Assembly: GCF_964355755.1 (NCBI RefSeq)
Contig: NC_092673.1
Span: 8,060,001 to 8,124,000, forward strand
Source of the DNA: Antedon mediterranea
Lineage: Eukaryota; Animalia; Echinodermata
Length of the DNA: 64,000 nt
Reading direction: 5' to 3'
This document shows, one piece after another, positions 46,459 through 58,233 of this stretch (positions are counted from its first letter, which is position 1; each line of letters starts with the position of its first letter). Made by a program: the position numbers and the translations under genes. The notes under the pieces were generated by a model. The model made no database searches, was not told the DNA's origin, and was given only the letters and a program-made list of their open reading frames with translations.

Positions 46459-48071
46459 TTAGGCTAATTGTCGTTTGTGCTCTTTCACAAATCGTCTGCA
46501 CTGTCGTTTGTCCTCTTTGTTTTCCATCCGTTTGCAGGAATCCATCTCATCTGTAAGACTCTGGTGCCACAGACAACATTTTTTTAACATCATTCGAGAT
46601 GACTTTGAAGGATAACAACTCTCCACCTTTTCTATCAGGTCATGTTGTTCAGTCAGTAGTTTATTGAACTTCTTTCTGCGATGAGCTTTGTCAATTTTTT
46701 CTCCCGCTACCAGCATTAAGTCGATGTTACAGAACATTAATTCATCCGCAACATTTTTGCCAACTCTACAGCACTTCTTTAGATTGTATCTTTTACTTTT
46801 GGTTTTAGAAACTTCTTCAAATGTGTCATGTTCTATTTTATTTATGATAGCTTCGGCATCGACGTTTATCAACCTATTGGTCTTGCTATCGTCAAACTCA
46901 ATTAATTCGTTTACCACAACTACTGTAAATAATAATAATGAATGCAGGATGAATTTTAATTATTAGACTTACTTACAGTTGGTTATATGATGGTAATTTT
47001 CAGTAATTTTAAGAGATTTTAACAGAAAGAAACGTTTGTGCAACAATATTTCCAATATAACTTGTTTTTTTTTCCTATAGTCATTAATGAATTTAATTTT
47101 ATTTTTTATTTTATGTCTTTAGGCAATGTGGCCAAGGATTAATTAAGAATTAATCACTGTCCTATCAGATAGGTGGTAATCCCCCTGATACAGGGGCTAT
47201 TGTGTGAACCAGTTCACCGGGGTAACCCCCTACTCTTTTTCGTAAAATGAACTGGGTTCTTTAAAGTACACACAGGTTATAACTGTGTACACTGGACCTA
47301 CGGTTTATAGTCCTTATCCGAGAAGACTTGTTCCACCACCAGAACTAGGAGCGAGTCGGCCTCGAACCCTTGCCGATGTTGTTGTTGGCTCTTTAGGTAC
47401 GGTAAACGGCGCCCCTGCCTTAACCGCTCGGCCATGACTCGAATGTGTAATGTCTTATTTTGTGCAAACAAAGTAAGTAAATGCTAGAAAGCGTATGAAT
47501 AAATGAATTATAATTCTCTGTATCATCAATTCGAACAATGACGACGTCATTACGACATTACGTACGGTAATAAAATAATACTAAACGAGGTTCATTATAG
47601 CTCATTACGGGGAATATGTTAACATTACTAATGCTTCTCTTATTATTAATTTTTATTTGCATCGCTGGTATACTTAGTAGTTATCGTTAATACAGTAGTC
47701 TTTAAATAACTGATTTATAGTTTTCAAGAAAAAGATTTTAAGCCACGCCATAATTATTATGAAAAGTTCTATTTTGAAAAAAACCTATTTGTGTTGCTAA
47801 TTATAAAATACTCAACCAAATAGTATCGGATTAACAGCACAGTATACTAAAACAATGTTCACATGTTATAGTAGAAAATACTATTACAATTTTTTAACAG
47901 ATTTATATTAGATTTCTTCCACTTAATTAAAAAAAACAAGTTTATAAAATATAAAATATGTTATTTTTTCAATATCAACAAGTAGGCCTAGATATATGAC
48001 TTACCACTCGAAATAGATGACACGCCAAATGTTAGAACAATCACTATCAGAATTACAGTAGACCGGTTCAT
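46459..48071 (-). CDS. Secreted Cys-rich precursor protein (~176 aa) with an anaphylatoxin-like CC..C..C..CC pattern
   Basis: Exon 1 48071-48005 encodes the signal peptide MNRSTVILIVIVLTFGVSSISS (G|GTAAG). Exon 2 46922-46459 (TTTACAG|) is in frame: acidic pro-region, KSKR, then a basic Cys-rich domain. Confidence 0.8.
47140..47441 (-). mobile_element. tRNA-derived SINE with Deu/Nin-type core (intronic)
   Basis: A box TGGCCGAGCGG and B box GGTTCGAGGCC, then GGATAAGGACTATAAACCGTAGGTCC..TTAAAGAACCC..AAGAGTAGGGG..CCCCGGTG. Confidence 0.8.
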
Positions 48072-51299: not shown

Positions 51300-51800
51300 A
51301 ACATGTGCACATTTTGTTGTGTACTCTAGAAATTAATGTGCTCAGCTCCTGCGGTTGAATTTCATTGGTTGGTTTTCCAGGAATTGTGAAAACGCCACCA
51401 TCGTGAGCCGTAATAAAGTGACTGTTCACGACAACCAATTATCACGTGAAATCACGAAATCACTGTACATTTTTCGGGAAGGGGAGGGAAAGCCTGTTTC
51501 TTTAATATTAATTACATACTAGGATAGGCCCTACTCCTAGCCTAGGCTAAATTAATACGGCGTGTATACTAGATTCCGGCAGAATGGACGCTTAGGCTAA
51601 CAAAGAGTAAGACTAACTAAGAGTACTTACTTAGCTAGGCTAGGTCATGGCAGGGCCTCTGTCTGTGTAGCCTAGTACTAGTAGAATTATGCTAGGCCTC
51701 TAGGCCAAATATTGACACAACAACGAACGAGGGCCAGGCCTATTGATATAGGCTACTAGAGTAATAATACTAGCTAGGCTAGGCTACCACACTCACTACA
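51300..51800 (+). promoter_or_regulatory. Probable promoter / 5' region of the CISD3-like gene
   Basis: CCAAT boxes, E-box TCACGTGA (51442), raised CpG content, CTAG-rich tract downstream. Confidence 0.4.
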
Positions 51801-52573
51801 CTGACATGCCCATTAATTAATTCCACTCACTGGAAGATTGTCTGTTGCTGCTGCTGACTGGTACACTGATCAATAATAGCGGTTAATAATATAAAATATT
51901 GGCTGGGTTAGAATAGATAGATCCAAGGCCACATTTAAGGAGGTCTACTTACTAACTACTACAGGCCTTTTCTTTTGAGGTGAGCGAGTGCGATAACTCA
52001 CCTAACACACTCCTAAACTGCCCTTGAGGAGTGTGATTTACAACACACTACTTAAATTTAGTAAACTTCTACACACCAAAATACAAACGGCACACCTACA
52101 GCACCCCTGAATGTAATGAGGAGTGCAATTTGTAGCACACCTACAATTTTAAAATGACAAGGCCTTCTACTACTAGTAGTAGTAGTAGTAGTAGTAGTGC
52201 TACTACCACAGTCTATATAGTCAGGACAACGCTTTAACGATCATATGATGAATGGATACTAGATGCCAAACATACAATTTCAGTTATATTATAAAGGAAT
52301 TTAAAAGATAGCAGTGACCTCGGTGACCATTCCATATTAAGTGTAATCTTAGACAAACATTTATTAGTTAGGCATTCAGAGTTCAGCATCATTGATGCAG
52401 GCTGAGTCCTCAAAGAAACAGCAAAGTCATTGTTTACACACTACAAACAGCATGATCGTTAAACCCTTTGTTATATGCCTAGAAAATTAATAAGAACTTT
52501 GTAAAATGCTGACTCTTATTATTGTGTTTTATTGCAGGCTACCATGAACTGAATCATTTATTATATTATTTAA

Positions 52574-53578
52574 ATGGCTGAAGAAGGCAAATCAGAGACT
52601 CCTAAGCGATACCCTGCAGTATATCAGGTATATAATAATCAAATTATGGAGGCCTAGCTTTATTATTATTATTGATATTATTTATATTTAGGCCTAGGTA
52701 TTTAATCTTTGGTAATAACAAATATTGCAGAGTAAGGTAAGCCTTTTCTGACTTATGTTTTATACGGTAGCTTTTCTCTTGGAAACTGATTTTTAGTTAT
52801 ACAGTACAACAACCACAGAATGTTTGTAACTTAATTGTCGCTTCTTGTTTTCCTTTGTTTTTTTGTGGTTTCACATCTCCAATATCTATATGCTACCTAT
52901 TTATTTTATTTTTTATATATTATTATAATATGTATTGTAATACGCACGCACTTATCGATTTTGCTATAGACAATTTTTAACTAAATGCACAGTTGACCGT
53001 ACAGATAGCCTCTATAGTGCGAGTGTGTCTCGTTAAATCATAGTTTGCTAACATTTCAGTATGGACCACATACCGTTAGAGGATTAAAACCTGGTGAGAA
53101 GAAAAAATGGTGTACTTGTGGACTGAGTAAAAAAGATCCATGGTGTGATGGTAACTAAATCATTTATTCTACACATTTCAAATACTGCTATACTGCTATG
53201 CTTTAACTAATATCTCTTCGTGCTGCTTTTGTTTTATTTATCTATCCGAACTTTTATTCTTCGTCTTTTTAATATTCATTTCATCATACAGTAGTAAATA
53301 AATTAATGGCATATATTCTTACACCTTTCATTTCACTATTATCAGATTCTCACAAAGGCACAGGCTTTGTACCCTTGCTTTGGACTGTCCCTGACAAACC
53401 ACAAACGCTTTATCAAATATGCTCATGCAAGTACACAACGAAGCCACCATATTGTGATGGAACTCACATCAATCTTCCGTGTGACGTTCTTGATCGTCAG
53501 AGAGATTGTAAGAAAAATAAAGAACATAGTAACTGTAGAAAGCTTTGTACAAATTGTGGGTACGTTCCTGACTTTTGA
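52574..53578 (+). CDS. CISD3: CDGSH iron-sulfur domain protein 3-like (MiNT/NEET), isoform a, 125 aa
   Basis: Exons 52574-52627, 53060-53150, 53346-53578. Motifs CTCGLSKKDPWCDDSH and CSCKYTTKPPYCDGTH; C-terminal C..H..C..LC..CG; AATAAA at ~53583 and ~53664. Confidence 0.88.
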
Positions 53579-54444
53579 ATGAAATAAAATGGCAAAAAGG
53601 CAAGTTAAAAAAAAACATATTTCCTTTCCCTATAAAAAAATCCTCATTCATACTTGACTGTCAATAAACTCTTCTGATCATTATAATATTTAATTAATTG
53701 TTCAGTAAAACGTGTGCTTTGGTAAGTTAACTGAAGAAAGGAATTTGCAAGTTTAGTTTGAAAAAGATGTTCAAAAGAGGCTTTTCTTGCATGTATGAGG
53801 TGAACAGATCAGAATCCAAACCTCATTTAAGTAGTAACAAAACCCTTAAACAAATTGGATTTATTTGCTAAAACATGAACATGACCTTGGCTTTCTGCAT
53901 TCCTTTTTTAAAGTTCAGCCATGTTCTCTGTGTGATTGTTCTGTGTATTCTTTGGTGGTTAGTATAATTATTCTATAAAAAATCTGCATATTGTGTTTTT
54001 GAAAGAAGTTTTAGTAAGGTCACAATGTATTGCTTCATCCAATTTTTAAAGGCAAGCTCCAGTCAAAATAATGTCTAAGAGTTGGTTAATCTGGTTTGCG
54101 TACACTACTTTTGGGAACAGTAGTCCATGCCCATGAAGTGTAAAGTCCAGTTTGATTGTGGCTTTAGACTAAAAACCAATTTCATAATTTGTTCAATTAA
54201 TCTGTGGTGAATTGTAAAATTCATGTACTCTGTATAATTGTGAAGTTGTGTTTGTAAACCAAATCATGGCTCTCCCCCAAAGTTCAACACACACGCAAAT
54301 ATTCCCTACGTTTTTTAGATCTATTTTAAGATCACAAACTATATTTAATGTAAAAATAATACTATATGGTCCTATTGCGATAACTTTTTTCGTCTTTAAT
54401 AAATGATTAAAAATGTGAAAAATAAGTCGATTCTAATAATTATA

Positions 54445-54780
54445 GCGGCTATAAATCCCAAAATGCATTGTGAGCGGATTGGTATTTCTGTTTTTCTTCT
54501 GTAATTCACTTCGATCGATCATGAGGCCAAAACAAATGGAAGACTCCTAACTTTTCAGCTAAAATACCGAGTTTTCCCCAATTTGTATCAACGGAGTCTG
54601 GCAAAAATAGAAAGACAATTAATGCAGCAACTATACAACGTCAGGCTAGGTATATAGCTAGCGTACGATGTTCGTACGTTACCGATGTTTACCAGCTAGG
54701 CCTACAAAACTAAGCCTAGCTAGGCTAGGCCTAAAGACCGTCCACGAGAGGTCAGTCGCCGCGAGCTACTTAGGTAGTGC
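54445..54780 (+). promoter_or_regulatory. Promoter-like island between CISD3 exons 3a and 3b
   Basis: ZNF143/Staf-like CTATAAATCCCAAAATGCATTG (~54449), reverse CCAAT, CTAG-rich tract, donor-like sites at 54649 and ~54772. Confidence 0.4.
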
Positions 54781-54966
54781 ATTGTTTCTCACTTTTTATC
54801 ATAATTTACCATAAAACGTACATTTAAGACAAGGAATGACCTGGTTTAATGTTTTTAAAGTAATATATATGTATTATTTTTACAAAACGTCACAAATTGT
54901 AGGGAAGGTGTCTTTAAACTTCTATATATATTTTTATATATATTATATTATTAATTTATTATTCAG

Positions 54967-55202
54967 GAGCACACAAGAGGACGGGATTTCATTCACTAAA
55001 GTGGATCGTTCCAGAAAATCCTGATGCAAGCTATGATATATGTGGTTGCAAACATACCAAGAATGCCCCATACTGTGATGGTACATGCCGAGAAAGGGAT
55101 CTGGAGAGTGAGGTTAAAGAAAGGCAAGAGAAATGCTTAAACAAGGAAAAACATCCATCATGTTCAAAGATGTGTACATCATGTGGTTGGGTAGATTTCT
55201 GA
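54967..55202 (+). CDS. CISD3: Duplicated alternative last exon (3b) of the CISD3-like gene, isoform b ~126 aa
   Basis: TTCAG| acceptor in the same phase as exon 3a; open frame GAHKRTGF...CGCKHTKNAPYCDGTC...CSKMCTSCGWVDF*. Missed by the ORF track because it has no ATG. Confidence 0.82.
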
Positions 55203-56313
55203 TGTGTCATGTAGATCAGTTTTAAAACTCAAATTATAGAATTCAATGGGAATATCTATTTCTCACCTGTACGTGAAATAGCAGTCTTAAACCTTGATCG
55301 CACTGCTTTTAATTTGGTCAAATTAACTGCTGGCCAAGTTGACAAAAATAAAAAATTCAATCTGAATGCAGGATTTCTAACCCTAACCAAAAACAACATT
55401 TTACATTTCTGCCCAGTAGAACCAGTAAACCTAACCAAATCCAATTAAATCATCATCATGTGCATGGTGCCATCTTGGACACCATCTACTATGATTTTCC
55501 ACACAAGATGTTGTGAAGCTCCATTTCTTAAGTCATCTCTGCATTTGATTCTCTGTTTACTCTTGGGCCTTCAATTGTGCCCAGTTGAGATATAATTGCC
55601 ATGTTTTCTGCACTACCACGAAGCATGGCTGCATAATGCATCTTCTTTTCATATTGTATTTATTTAATTAATATATTTTAATATATTAATCAACGGGCAC
55701 CTAACAAATTCTAAACTGCCCAGTAATATACTGAAAATTAATTAATTTAAAACGATAAAGACAAGGAAATCTGTGAGAATGATTAAAAAAAAGCCACCCC
55801 AATCAAGATTTAAACTGTAAACCTTGATGCCCAAGCCATTAGACCACTTGGGATTTTATGGTATTTCACAATTCAATTGGAATTGGAAATGTGAGGTTTT
55901 TTTAATGCTTAAATTTTTGTTAAAATGTTGGTAAAACTAAATGAATTTTTTCAGATGATGGTCAAAAGTACCCATGTCCCCATTACTGTTGTTGAATTTA
56001 GTCAATAAAACTTAAATTATGGTGATGCGTTGGTTGTATTATTCTATATCAGGCATTATGCTGTGTTTCCAAAAAAAAGTTTCTGCTTGCTGAAAGAGAC
56101 GGGCAGTAATTCCAATCATGATTTAAATACAGCAAAGATAGAGTGAATTACCGAACATTGCTTGGTTCGGGATGTTTTTACTTCAAAACTATCCAATGCT
56201 ACTGACCGATATACCCCTTGAAAATGAAAATTGATTGGTGGTGATGATGCTGGATCATCAAGATTTGCAAGAATATGAACCAAGAGAGCCATGATGTTAT
56301 CGAGAAGAGCTTG

Positions 56314-58233
56314 CAGGCCCGTAGCCAGGGGGGTTTTTTGGGGTTCGGGCGAACCCCCCCTTTTGCGCGAACCCCCCTTTTACCAGCGAACCCCCCTTGA
56401 AAAACAAAGGCCCCACTTCCAAAATCGTGCAATTAATTATCAATTATAGCAGATTTTTTGGTCATTTTACTTCTATTGACTATGTTTAAATCGATCGAAT
56501 ATACAGATTGTCCGATGTCAAAGTCACTGCTGAGCGTGAGATCGAGAGATTGTTGAGAGATGATGGTTATAAATATGACAGAAAAATGGACTGACCAATC
56601 GCGTGCTTCGGCCGGGCTTCGGAACGCACAAGATCACGTTCAGTTCAGTTCAATCTTTTTGGGGATTTTTATTTTTTTCCTGGAAATATTTTTCATTAAA
56701 CCAAAGAATTTCACTGTTTAAACTTGAATAAAAATGATGCTGAGTTAAATTGGTACGTGTACGTAGGCCTACCGTATATTTCGGTGTACAAGACGCACTT
56801 TTGACACGCAAATTTGACCTCTAAATGTAACCCTAATTAATTTAATTACCTACTAATACTTAAATTAATTAAAAATAGTGTAGGCCTACTACTCTGCAAT
56901 GTAGGCCTAGCTAGTTACTCACTCCTGTCTAACCACAGTGTGGTAACAAGTTTATTGAATTTTTAGTTAAGGTAAATTGTCATCCTCGACTGTATTAATT
57001 AATATTACAGTACGCATTAGATATTCTACCCAGGCCGCGCCTAGCAATACTCTCTGAACTCGCGGGTGTGTATTCTAGCAGCATGCAGCATCATCACAGC
57101 GCAACACATTTATGGAAGAGTCCATTAATTACGGTGGTGTCACATTTTATTTACACAATAACTATTTCCCTTGATCACGGTGGTTTATTTTTATTACATC
57201 TCTATGTCAACAATCACATAATTTTATAATCATGTAGTCAATAGTTCGTATGTCAAGCGATATCTAAAAGAGTGTGTTGTTATTGTGTTAAGTAGCTTCC
57301 CCTAATCTTATAGTGTATATGGCCAACACTGCTGGCCACCAGGCAAGGAGCACATGGTTAGTGCTCTCTCCTCATATTGCTGTAATGCATGCATGGAAAT
57401 AGGAAAGATTTTCATATAGGCCTACCCAACATGATATTCCTGGTTCATTATCAGCCCAAAAAACTGAACATCATTTGGATTGATTTTATAATGGTCATAC
57501 ACACAATAAGAAGGTATATATTTAAATAATATGAAATTAAAGTTACTTAAATAGACTTAGGCTAGCCCTACCCACACAGTGCATCGTAACTGAAACAATA
57601 TGGGGATTTCCCTTTTCATTGAACGTTCAGTTGAAGTAGAGACTGATTACGATGTAATAAAGGCAATCAAACAAAATTATATCATTTCATTCTAATATGT
57701 CTCAAATATCGTTATTTTATTATTAAAATACCATTGTTTTGATTGTAAAATGTTTAAATTTCGGCCTAGAAATAAGTGCGTCTTATGCATCGACTACATA
57801 AAAAATACTAATATTTCAGTCTCCGTTATGGGTGCGTCTTATACACAGGTGCGACTTGTACACCGAAATATACGGTACTATTTGTTTTTTATGTTTATAG
57901 GATAAGAAATTACTTAAGGGCCTAATATAATATACCTCTTTGCAACAATAAAGCTGTATTTCATGATCAGTACTACTAACTTCCATACTGTAGGCCTACT
58001 ATATAATTTCTCTGCATAACCCAGATTTTAGTAGGTAAAAAATGTCTCTGTAAGCTTATTAAAACAACCAAAATTGCTCTGAGAGCCAAAGCTTCCAGGG
58101 GGCTTCGCCCCCTGGACCCCGACCGGGGGCCCTTGGCGTCCCCCCTGGCCCCCAGCCTACAGTTGCTCGCTGCGCTCGCAAAATACTTGGTGTCAAGAAA
58201 ACCCCCCTCTGATGCATTCTGGCTACGGGCCTG
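56314..58233. mobile_element. hAT-like TIR element (CAGGCCCGTAGCCAG ends)
   Basis: 15-bp perfect TIRs; GAACCCCCC subterminal repeats; no clear 8-bp TSD. Confidence 0.65.
56772..57875. mobile_element. Tc1/mariner(pogo)-like MITE nested in the hAT-like element
   Basis: TA|CCGTATATTTCGGTGTACAAG ... CTTGTACACCGAAATATACGG|TA. Confidence 0.85.

What the first reader, a model, noticed from the sequence alone, without database searches (positions are those of the whole stretch)
52574..55202. NEET/CISD3 gene with duplicated last exons that switch [2Fe-2S] ligation from 3Cys-1His to 4Cys
Seen: exon 2 ends in the middle of CDGSH motif 1 (..PWCD|) and can join, in phase, either of two paralogous open terminal exons. 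Exon 3a gives CDDSH + CDGTH; exon 3b gives CDGAH + CDGTC (His CAC at 53465 vs Cys TGC at 55086, a two-base difference, so unlikely to be a single read error). Known: the His ligand makes NEET clusters labile and transferable, and engineered His-to-Cys mutants (mitoNEET H87C, NAF-1 H114C) stabilise the cluster, lower its redox potential and impair transfer. Inference: alternative last-exon or poly(A) choice could give a natural cluster-donor isoform and a cluster-locked isoform, a splicing-controlled Fe-S chemistry switch.
Basis: partly seen in the sequence, partly recalled or inferred. Interest (0 to 1): 0.85.

Follow-up and report, generated by a model that had tools for sequence, protein, structure and literature searches.

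The report
Splicing swaps an iron-sulfur ligand
A feather-star gene for a two-cluster iron-sulfur (CDGSH/NEET-type) protein includes or skips a duplicated exon, so its two transcripts encode histidine or cysteine at the same cluster-binding position, which likely makes one form a natural version of the cluster-stabilising mutant that biochemists engineer.

Summary
Both junctions (exon 2>3a, exon 2>3b) occur in spliced contigs of two runs from two studies. Exon 3a is not a last exon. It is a stop-bearing cassette spliced through a GC-AG intron (53600-54966) onto 3b, which then serves as 3' UTR. RefSeq holds both proteins for Antedon mediterranea and for Anneissia japonica, another crinoid family; both keep CDDSH+CDGTH versus CDG[AS]H+CDGTC. 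The 3b motif PYCDGTCR is identical to the engineered H113C site of human MiNT (PDB 6AVJ). Limits: only cluster 2 changes and His51 stays; the exons differ at about half their residues; the protein lacks a mitochondrial presequence and has a Cys/His tail, so it is not plainly CISD3; natural His-to-Cys CDGSH motifs were reported in 2011 (PMC3174974). No biochemistry or regulation was tested. What looks new is the splice-controlled ligand swap within one gene. New variant of a known kind; interest 0.6.

The parts
51528..51606 (+). 5' non-coding exon (3' end 51606, donor GTAAGA; true start unknown, 51528 is only the extent of the contig side)
   Evidence: joint 51606>52538, GT..AG, 79 letters on the short side, run X9 only; donor
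52538..52627 (+). Exon 1; ATG at 52574 preceded directly by in-frame TAA, so no N-terminal extension; acidic N-terminus without presequence features
53060..53150 (+). Exon 2: CDGSH motif 1 up to C47-D48 (C36 at 53111), ends in phase 1; intron position is ancestral
   Evidence: same phase-1 intron after CD in metagenome locus L005
53346..53599 (+). Exon 3a, cassette exon: completes motif 1 as CDDSH, motif 2 = CDGTH, Cys/His tail, stop ending 53578, 21 nt before its GC donor
   Evidence: joints 53150>53346 and 53599>54967 in X5 and X9; RefSeq XP_071947310.1
53465..53467 (+). His89 codon CAC, fourth-ligand position of motif 2 in the 3a form
53600..54966 (+). GC-AG intron (donor AAG|GCAAGT), containing high-copy repeat DNA at about 54170-54900
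54967..55895 (+). Exon 3b, last exon of both transcripts: coding (CDGAH completion, CDGTC, 2-residue insertion, tail; stop ends 55202) when 3a is skipped, 3' UTR when 3a is included; 3' end at least 55895
   Evidence: joint 53150>54967 and contig 54966-55895 in X5; RefSeq XP_071947309.1
55086..55088 (+). Cys89 codon TGC, fourth-ligand position of motif 2 in the 3b form

Best explanation
One crinoid tandem-CDGSH gene makes two proteins by including or skipping a duplicated, stop-bearing exon, and skipping puts Cys where His sits in motif 2, which likely turns the second [2Fe-2S] site from 3Cys-1His into a stabler, lower-potential 4Cys site. Shown: the ancestral third exon was duplicated before Antedon and Anneissia split; the upstream copy (3a) is spliced in through a GC donor onto the downstream copy (3b), ending translation in 3a; skipping 3a makes 3b coding; both forms are transcribed; both exons are conserved. 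From established knowledge: a stop 21 nt before the last junction should escape the 50-nt nonsense-mediated decay rule, and His-to-Cys in NEET proteins stabilises the cluster and lowers its potential by about 300 mV. Inferred: Cys89 ligates iron; the 3b form is a mixed protein with one labile (His51) and one fixed cluster, suited to electron transfer or acid/oxidant resistance more than to cluster donation from site 2; the 3a form keeps two His sites, with site 1 retuned by Gly49 to Asp; both are likely cytosolic. Regulation of the ratio by tissue or stress is untested.
For: Junctions in two studies. Consensus GC donor, and stop 21 nt upstream of it. Both isoforms in RefSeq for two crinoid families with the same motif pairs. 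Orthologous exon identity 51/77 (3b) and 58/76 (3a) versus paralogous 33-38 of 75-76; each orthologous pair groups in the tree. Cys89 is at +4 from Cys85, the His17 position; PYCDGTCR aligns without gap to the H113C site of 6AVJ. AlphaFold2 models of both forms are confident (mean pLDDT 87.3 and 91.2) and match 6AVJ and 3TBN (Foldseek E 1e-9 to 3e-8, rmsd 1.0-1.8 A). Of 140 tail-bearing relatives, 136 have His; the only intact motif-2 Cys cases are the two crinoid 3b forms. Effects of His-to-Cys: passages of PMC6006223 and PMC10937110.
Against: No cluster was modelled or measured. 3a and 3b differ at about half their residues and 3b has a 2-residue insertion and has lost the family H-x-x-L-P, so selection may act on other features. 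MAFFT aligns the Cys inside the insertion, so the history of the change is ambiguous. His51 remains, so 3b is not fully locked. Only two species carry the Cys in named records, and the Anneissia gene structure could not be read. Contigs cannot give isoform levels or tissue specificity. No peptide evidence.
Confidence: 0.65

Rival explanations
1. Both isoforms are functional, but the difference that matters is not cluster lability: site 2 of 3b binds zinc or no cluster, or Cys89 serves the tail or a disulfide, and the exon swap mainly changes partner surfaces and the position of the Cys/His tail.
For: About half the residues differ between 3a and 3b. The ligand-to-tail spacing is 16 in both 3b forms against 14 in 137 of 140 relatives. 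The tail offers further Cys/His residues. Lin 2011 says only that natural Cys motifs 'may still' bind a cluster.
Against: Cys is in exact ligand register and the same local sequence holds a [2Fe-2S] cluster in 6AVJ. The other three motif-2 cysteines are intact, and the tail's own four invariant residues are all present in 3b.
Confidence: 0.2
2. Exon 3a works mainly as a regulatory (poison-like) cassette: its inclusion stops translation early relative to the last exon and lowers output of the 3b protein, and only one isoform matters as protein.
For: Stop-bearing cassette with a GC donor and a longer 3' UTR. The 3a form has Asp at the Gly that Lin 2011 lists as universally conserved; Asp is in only 3 of 105 two-motif relatives.
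Against: 3a encodes a complete domain and is the better conserved exon (58/76 between families), closer to the family consensus. Its stop lies inside the 50-nt window. Non-Gly residues occur at that position in 14 of 105 relatives. Its contig depth is of the same order as the skip junction (293 vs 205; 32 vs 42, a rough figure only).
Confidence: 0.08
3. One reading: alternative last exons chosen by poly(A) site, giving a donor and a fully locked isoform.
For: AATAAA at 53583, just after the 3a stop; contigs drop rare variants and cannot show RNA ends, so a minor proximal poly(A) form is not excluded.
Against: The only listed 3a contig in each of X5 and X9 continues into 3b. Motif 1 keeps His in the 3b form.
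Confidence: 0.05
4. Remnant of a second gene, or an assembly artefact.
For: High-copy repeats lie between 3a and 3b and no single contig spans the whole stretch.
Against: No second motif-1 exon in six frames of the window. Spliced contigs link exon 2, 3a and 3b. Anneissia isoforms share one N-terminus and one contig length.
Confidence: 0.02

Closest known systems
Human CISD3/MiNT/Miner2 and its engineered H75C/H113C mutant (PDB 6AVJ)
   Same: Tandem CDGSH monomer fold (Foldseek E 8e-9, 40% identity); 3b motif 2 reads PYCDGTCR as in the H113C site.
   Different: Here the Cys is natural, at one site only, and chosen by splicing; no mitochondrial presequence; extra C-terminal Cys/His tail; the Atlas lists the tail-bearing cluster apart from the chordate CISD3 cluster.
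Natural His-to-Cys type 5/6 CISDs (Lin et al. 2011, PMC3174974)
   Same: One of two motifs has Cys for His; the paper reports 17% of type 5/6 proteins with a degenerate motif, about half of them His-to-Cys. 10 of 148 tail-less tandem proteins retrieved here have it too.
   Different: Those are fixed per gene. Here His and Cys versions are isoforms of one gene.
Tandem duplicated exon substitutions (PMC9741552)
   Same: Homologous exons used in a mutually exclusive way in the coding sequence; C-terminal swaps are common (77 of 236 human events).
   Different: That study finds ligand-binding residues under-represented and more conserved in such exons. Here a cofactor ligand itself is exchanged, and exclusivity comes from a stop in the upstream copy while the downstream copy becomes UTR.
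Tail-bearing CISD3-like subfamily (database name 'CISD3, mitochondrial-like'; echinoderms, hemichordates, lancelets, molluscs, annelids, cnidarians, early-branching fungi)
   Same: Same domain layout and C-x(n)-H-x(n)-C-x2-C tail; same motif-1 intron.
   Different: Other members retrieved have His in motif 2; no second copy of the exon was seen in the one non-crinoid locus read (L005).

Membership tests
Type 6 / class II CDGSH protein | Two 17-residue CDGSH motifs about 20 residues apart | tested here: met
   C36-C38-C47-H51 and C74-C76-C85-H/C89; PF09360 hits on each exon piece, below the curated cut-off as fragments, and precomputed on the whole proteins
Type 6 / class II CDGSH protein | Full consensus C-x-C-x2-S/T-x3-P-x-C-D-G-S/A/T-H in both motifs | tested here: not met
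   3a form: Asp for Gly in motif 1. 3b form: Cys for His in motif 2. Degenerate motifs are counted within types 5/6 by Lin 2011, so this marks a variant
Type 6 / class II CDGSH protein | Monomeric pseudo-symmetric beta-sandwich fold | tested here: met
   Predicted models match 6AVJ and 3TBN; prediction only, oligomeric state not tested
Type 6 / class II CDGSH protein | Type-specific Gln (motif 1, position 10) and Lys (motif 2, position 5) | tested here: inconclusive
   Antedon has Asp44 and Lys77; Anneissia has Gln, and Lys in 3a but Cys in 3b
Type 6 / class II CDGSH protein | Binds two [2Fe-2S] clusters | not testable with these tools
   Needs spectroscopy
CISD3/MiNT orthologue | Mitochondrial matrix presequence | tested here: not met
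   In-frame TAA directly before the ATG; acidic N-terminus; judged by eye, no targeting predictor run
CISD3/MiNT orthologue | Groups with vertebrate CISD3 in a tree | not tested
   No vertebrate CISD3 in the tree; separate Atlas clusters are only a hint
NEET cluster donor | His-dependent cluster transfer to an apo-acceptor | not testable with these tools
   Known for human proteins; unknown for this subfamily
Tandem duplicated exon substitution | Adjacent homologous exons, one coding per transcript | tested here: met
Tandem duplicated exon substitution | Both copies conserved across species | tested here: met
   Anneissia X1/X2; two named species only
Alternative last exon / alternative poly(A) | Upstream exon ends the transcript | tested here: not met
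   3a is spliced to 3b in X5 and X9; a minor proximal poly(A) form cannot be excluded with contigs

The most novel reading that the evidence does not exclude
Crinoids use regulated inclusion of one exon as an iron-sulfur chemistry switch: the included form is a two-His cluster donor or sensor, and the skipped form is a natural half-locked, low-potential protein that holds its second cluster, transfers electrons or antagonises the donor form, with the ratio set by tissue, iron or redox state. It would be a natural single-site H-to-C control for the open question of whether NEET proteins act in vivo by cluster transfer or by electron transfer.
Probability: 0.3. Interest if true: 0.8.

Novelty: new variant of a known kind. 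Interest (0 to 1): 0.6.

Why it matters
Whether NEET proteins work in cells by giving away clusters or by passing electrons is still debated (PMC11138216, passage), and the His-to-Cys mutant is the main tool for the question. This gene keeps both versions as splice isoforms, conserved across two crinoid families, with an identical N-terminal part. That gives a natural pair for assay and a rare case of splicing exchanging a cofactor ligand. It also points to a widespread tail-bearing CDGSH subfamily that databases label 'mitochondrial CISD3-like' although this member has no presequence.

Tried and rejected
No whole genome is held, so a separate canonical CISD3 gene in this species could not be sought. 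The run search listed no holder on record as RNA; X5 and X9 are judged RNA only from their spliced joints. X1 may be the assembly's own sample and is not independent support. X10, X12 and X14 gave single near-identical contigs at depth under 5; they are not counted as further species. X9 differences in 3a and 3b coding parts (3a: 1 non-synonymous, 2 synonymous; 3b: 2 synonymous) are too few for dN/dS, and the 3a rows come from a cut table. The exon-3 tree (31 rows, 76 columns, bootstrap not settled) does not resolve whether the duplication is crinoid-specific. The tail alone gave no Atlas hit; the VIA-align structure search was never run, so the tail's fold is unassigned. The ligand tally was off by one position and was redone. 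The metagenome scan gave 5 loci of 376 pattern matches, none resembling the crinoid arrangement. Earlier findings of this scan: nothing in 3 look-ups. No complex was predicted, since a ligand cannot be scored as partner. The MiNT structure paper is not held, so single-site mutant behaviour was not checked.

Full report
Observation. Exon 1 CDS is 52574-52627 and exon 2 is 53060-53150, ending in phase 1 inside CDGSH motif 1. Exon 3a from 53346 gives a 125-aa protein with CDDSH and CDGTH (His CAC at 53465). Exon 3b from 54967 gives a 126-aa protein with CDGAH and CDGTC (Cys TGC at 55086). A six-frame scan of the window finds only three motif pieces, in exon 2, 3a and 3b, so 3b has no exon 2 of its own.

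Organism and annotation. The 3b product matches RefSeq XP_071947309.1 (isoform X1) of the feather star Antedon mediterranea at 100%, and the 3a product is XP_071947310.1 (isoform X2). Both isoforms are therefore already annotated, as uncharacterised proteins.

Transcripts. I laid 4 of the 24 listed runs on 51500-56500. X5 (organism A) and X9 (organism B, another study) show spliced joints 52627>53060, 53150>53346 and 53150>54967; X9 also shows 51606>52538. X1 is unspliced and X11 covers none of the coding exons. Both spliced runs also show 53597>54965 with three letters fitting either side. Read two places right, this is an intron 53600-54966 with ends GC..AG and the consensus donor AAG|GCAAGT. 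One search confirms it: the loose end before 3b in X9 is the 3' end of exon 3a. So 3a is a cassette exon with its own stop, 21 nt before the donor, and 3b is the last exon of both transcripts. By the usual 50-nt rule (established knowledge, not tested here) the 3a form should escape nonsense-mediated decay. Contig depths are of the same order for inclusion and skipping (293 vs 205 in X5, 32 vs 42 in X9), but contig depth is a poor measure and says nothing on regulation. An AATAAA at 53583 leaves a minor proximal poly(A) form possible.

Conservation. Anneissia japonica (Comatulidae by the listing; Antedon is Antedonidae) has the same pair: XP_033108390-393 with CDGSH+CDGTC and XP_033108396.1 with CDDSH+CDGTH, with one shared N-terminus. 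Identity is 51/77 between the 3b parts, 58/76 between the 3a parts, 37/47 in the shared part and 33-38 of 75-76 between paralogues. Each orthologous pair groups in a 31-row tree (95/88 and 94/99; bootstrap not settled, backbone open). The duplication therefore predates the split of the two families, and its age beyond that is unresolved. The intron inside motif 1 is old: an unnamed eukaryotic locus has it in the same phase, with no second exon copy seen (L005).

Family. The protein belongs to a subfamily of tandem-CDGSH proteins with a C-terminal tail holding invariant Cys, His, Cys, Cys (C105, H111, C118, C121), found by name in echinoderms, hemichordates, lancelets, molluscs, annelids, cnidarians and early-branching fungi. 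Of 303 retrieved proteins, 299 have a motif and 140 have the tail by my pattern (redundant set). 136 of the 140 have His in the last motif; of the 4 with Cys, 2 are the crinoid 3b forms and 2 (P0205, P0232) are cases where the pattern did not catch an intact motif 2. One further relative, P0182, has Cys in motif 1. The ligand-to-tail spacing is 14 in 137 of 140 and 16 in both 3b forms. An in-frame TAA precedes the ATG and the N-terminus is acidic, so the 'mitochondrial CISD3' label is doubtful; cytosolic location is my inference.

Is the Cys a ligand? It is four residues after Cys85, the position of His17 of the motif. PYCDGTCR aligns without a gap to the H113C site of human MiNT in 6AVJ, which PMC10937110 describes as the H75C/H113C structure with clusters (passages). 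AlphaFold2 models (89-row alignments) have mean pLDDT 87.3 for 3b and 91.2 for 3a and match 6AVJ and 3TBN best. No cluster was modelled, so ligation is inferred. PMC6006223 (passages) reports that His-to-Cys stabilises NEET clusters and shifts the potential from about +30 mV to about -300 mV; PMC10937110 says it abolishes transfer in CISD3.

Against a simple donor/locked reading. Only site 2 changes and His51 stays. The 3a form has its own conserved deviation, Asp for the Gly that Lin 2011 lists as universally conserved, created by the split codon; Asp occurs there in 3 of 105 two-motif relatives and any non-Gly in 14. About half the residues of the exon differ. Each isoform thus has one canonical and one altered motif, and the selected difference need not be lability.

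What is known. Lin et al. 2011 (PMC3174974; parts 1-3 of 6 read; supplementary File S5 not seen and may list the cases) report that 17% of type 5/6 proteins have a degenerate motif, about half with His replaced by Cys. Here 10 of 148 tail-less tandem proteins have Cys in the last motif. Tandem duplicated exon substitution is a known class; PMC9741552 (passages) finds C-terminal swaps enriched and ligand-binding residues conserved in them. PMC5859297 (part 1 of 6), PMC5311916 (part 2 of 4) and PMC11138216 (passages) did not mention, in what I read, the tail or splice variants of the ligand. Ten full-text searches (listings only apart from the papers named) returned nothing on a CDGSH ligand switched by splicing or on this gene in crinoids; the library lacks most subscription papers.

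Verdict. A real, expressed and conserved feature. The parts are known kinds (natural Cys-for-His CDGSH motif; duplicated-exon substitution), while their combination, a cofactor ligand exchanged by exon skipping in one gene, appears unreported. Confidence that the ligand set really differs between two made proteins is 0.65; that it is a regulated functional switch, 0.3. Interest 0.6.

Noticed in passing
window 55128-55202 and 53501-53578 (approximate; last ~25 codons of 3b and 3a): Conserved C-terminal tail with invariant Cys, His, Cys-x2-Cys followed by G-W/Y/F, shared by invertebrates and early-branching fungi; no Pfam family or Atlas hit covers it. It may be a third metal site and marks a subfamily distinct from vertebrate CISD3.
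   Followed up: partly
window 53150/53346: The split codon makes Gly49 an Asp in the 3a form (CDDSH) in both crinoids, so splicing also alters motif 1.
   Followed up: partly
window 46459-46959, - strand: 166-aa open frame with a hydrophobic start and two KKCC motifs; only a weak Pfam hit (DUF4252, E 0.27). Possibly a secreted Cys-rich helical protein.
   Followed up: partly
window about 51990-52160, 54170-54900 and 55680-55840: High-copy repeats by contig depth; a loose end at 55782 looks like a tRNA-derived SINE by eye.
   Followed up: no
window 51584-51595 and 52544-52552: Two very short upstream ATG-stop frames in the 5' UTR exons.
   Followed up: no
proteins P0116, P0117, P0119, P0120, P0123, P0135; P0109, P0128, P0136, P0140, P0244; PDB 6z1p_AV: Other natural His-less second motifs: a CFG[NT]C group (one named member bacterial) and a group with Cys one residue later (CDxxxC), which includes a Tetrahymena mitoribosomal protein.
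   Followed up: no
proteins P0017, P0019, P0020 (Patiria miniata): RefSeq isoforms lacking eight residues of motif 1, including the third Cys, just before the same intron; possibly an alternative donor that disables cluster 1.
   Followed up: no
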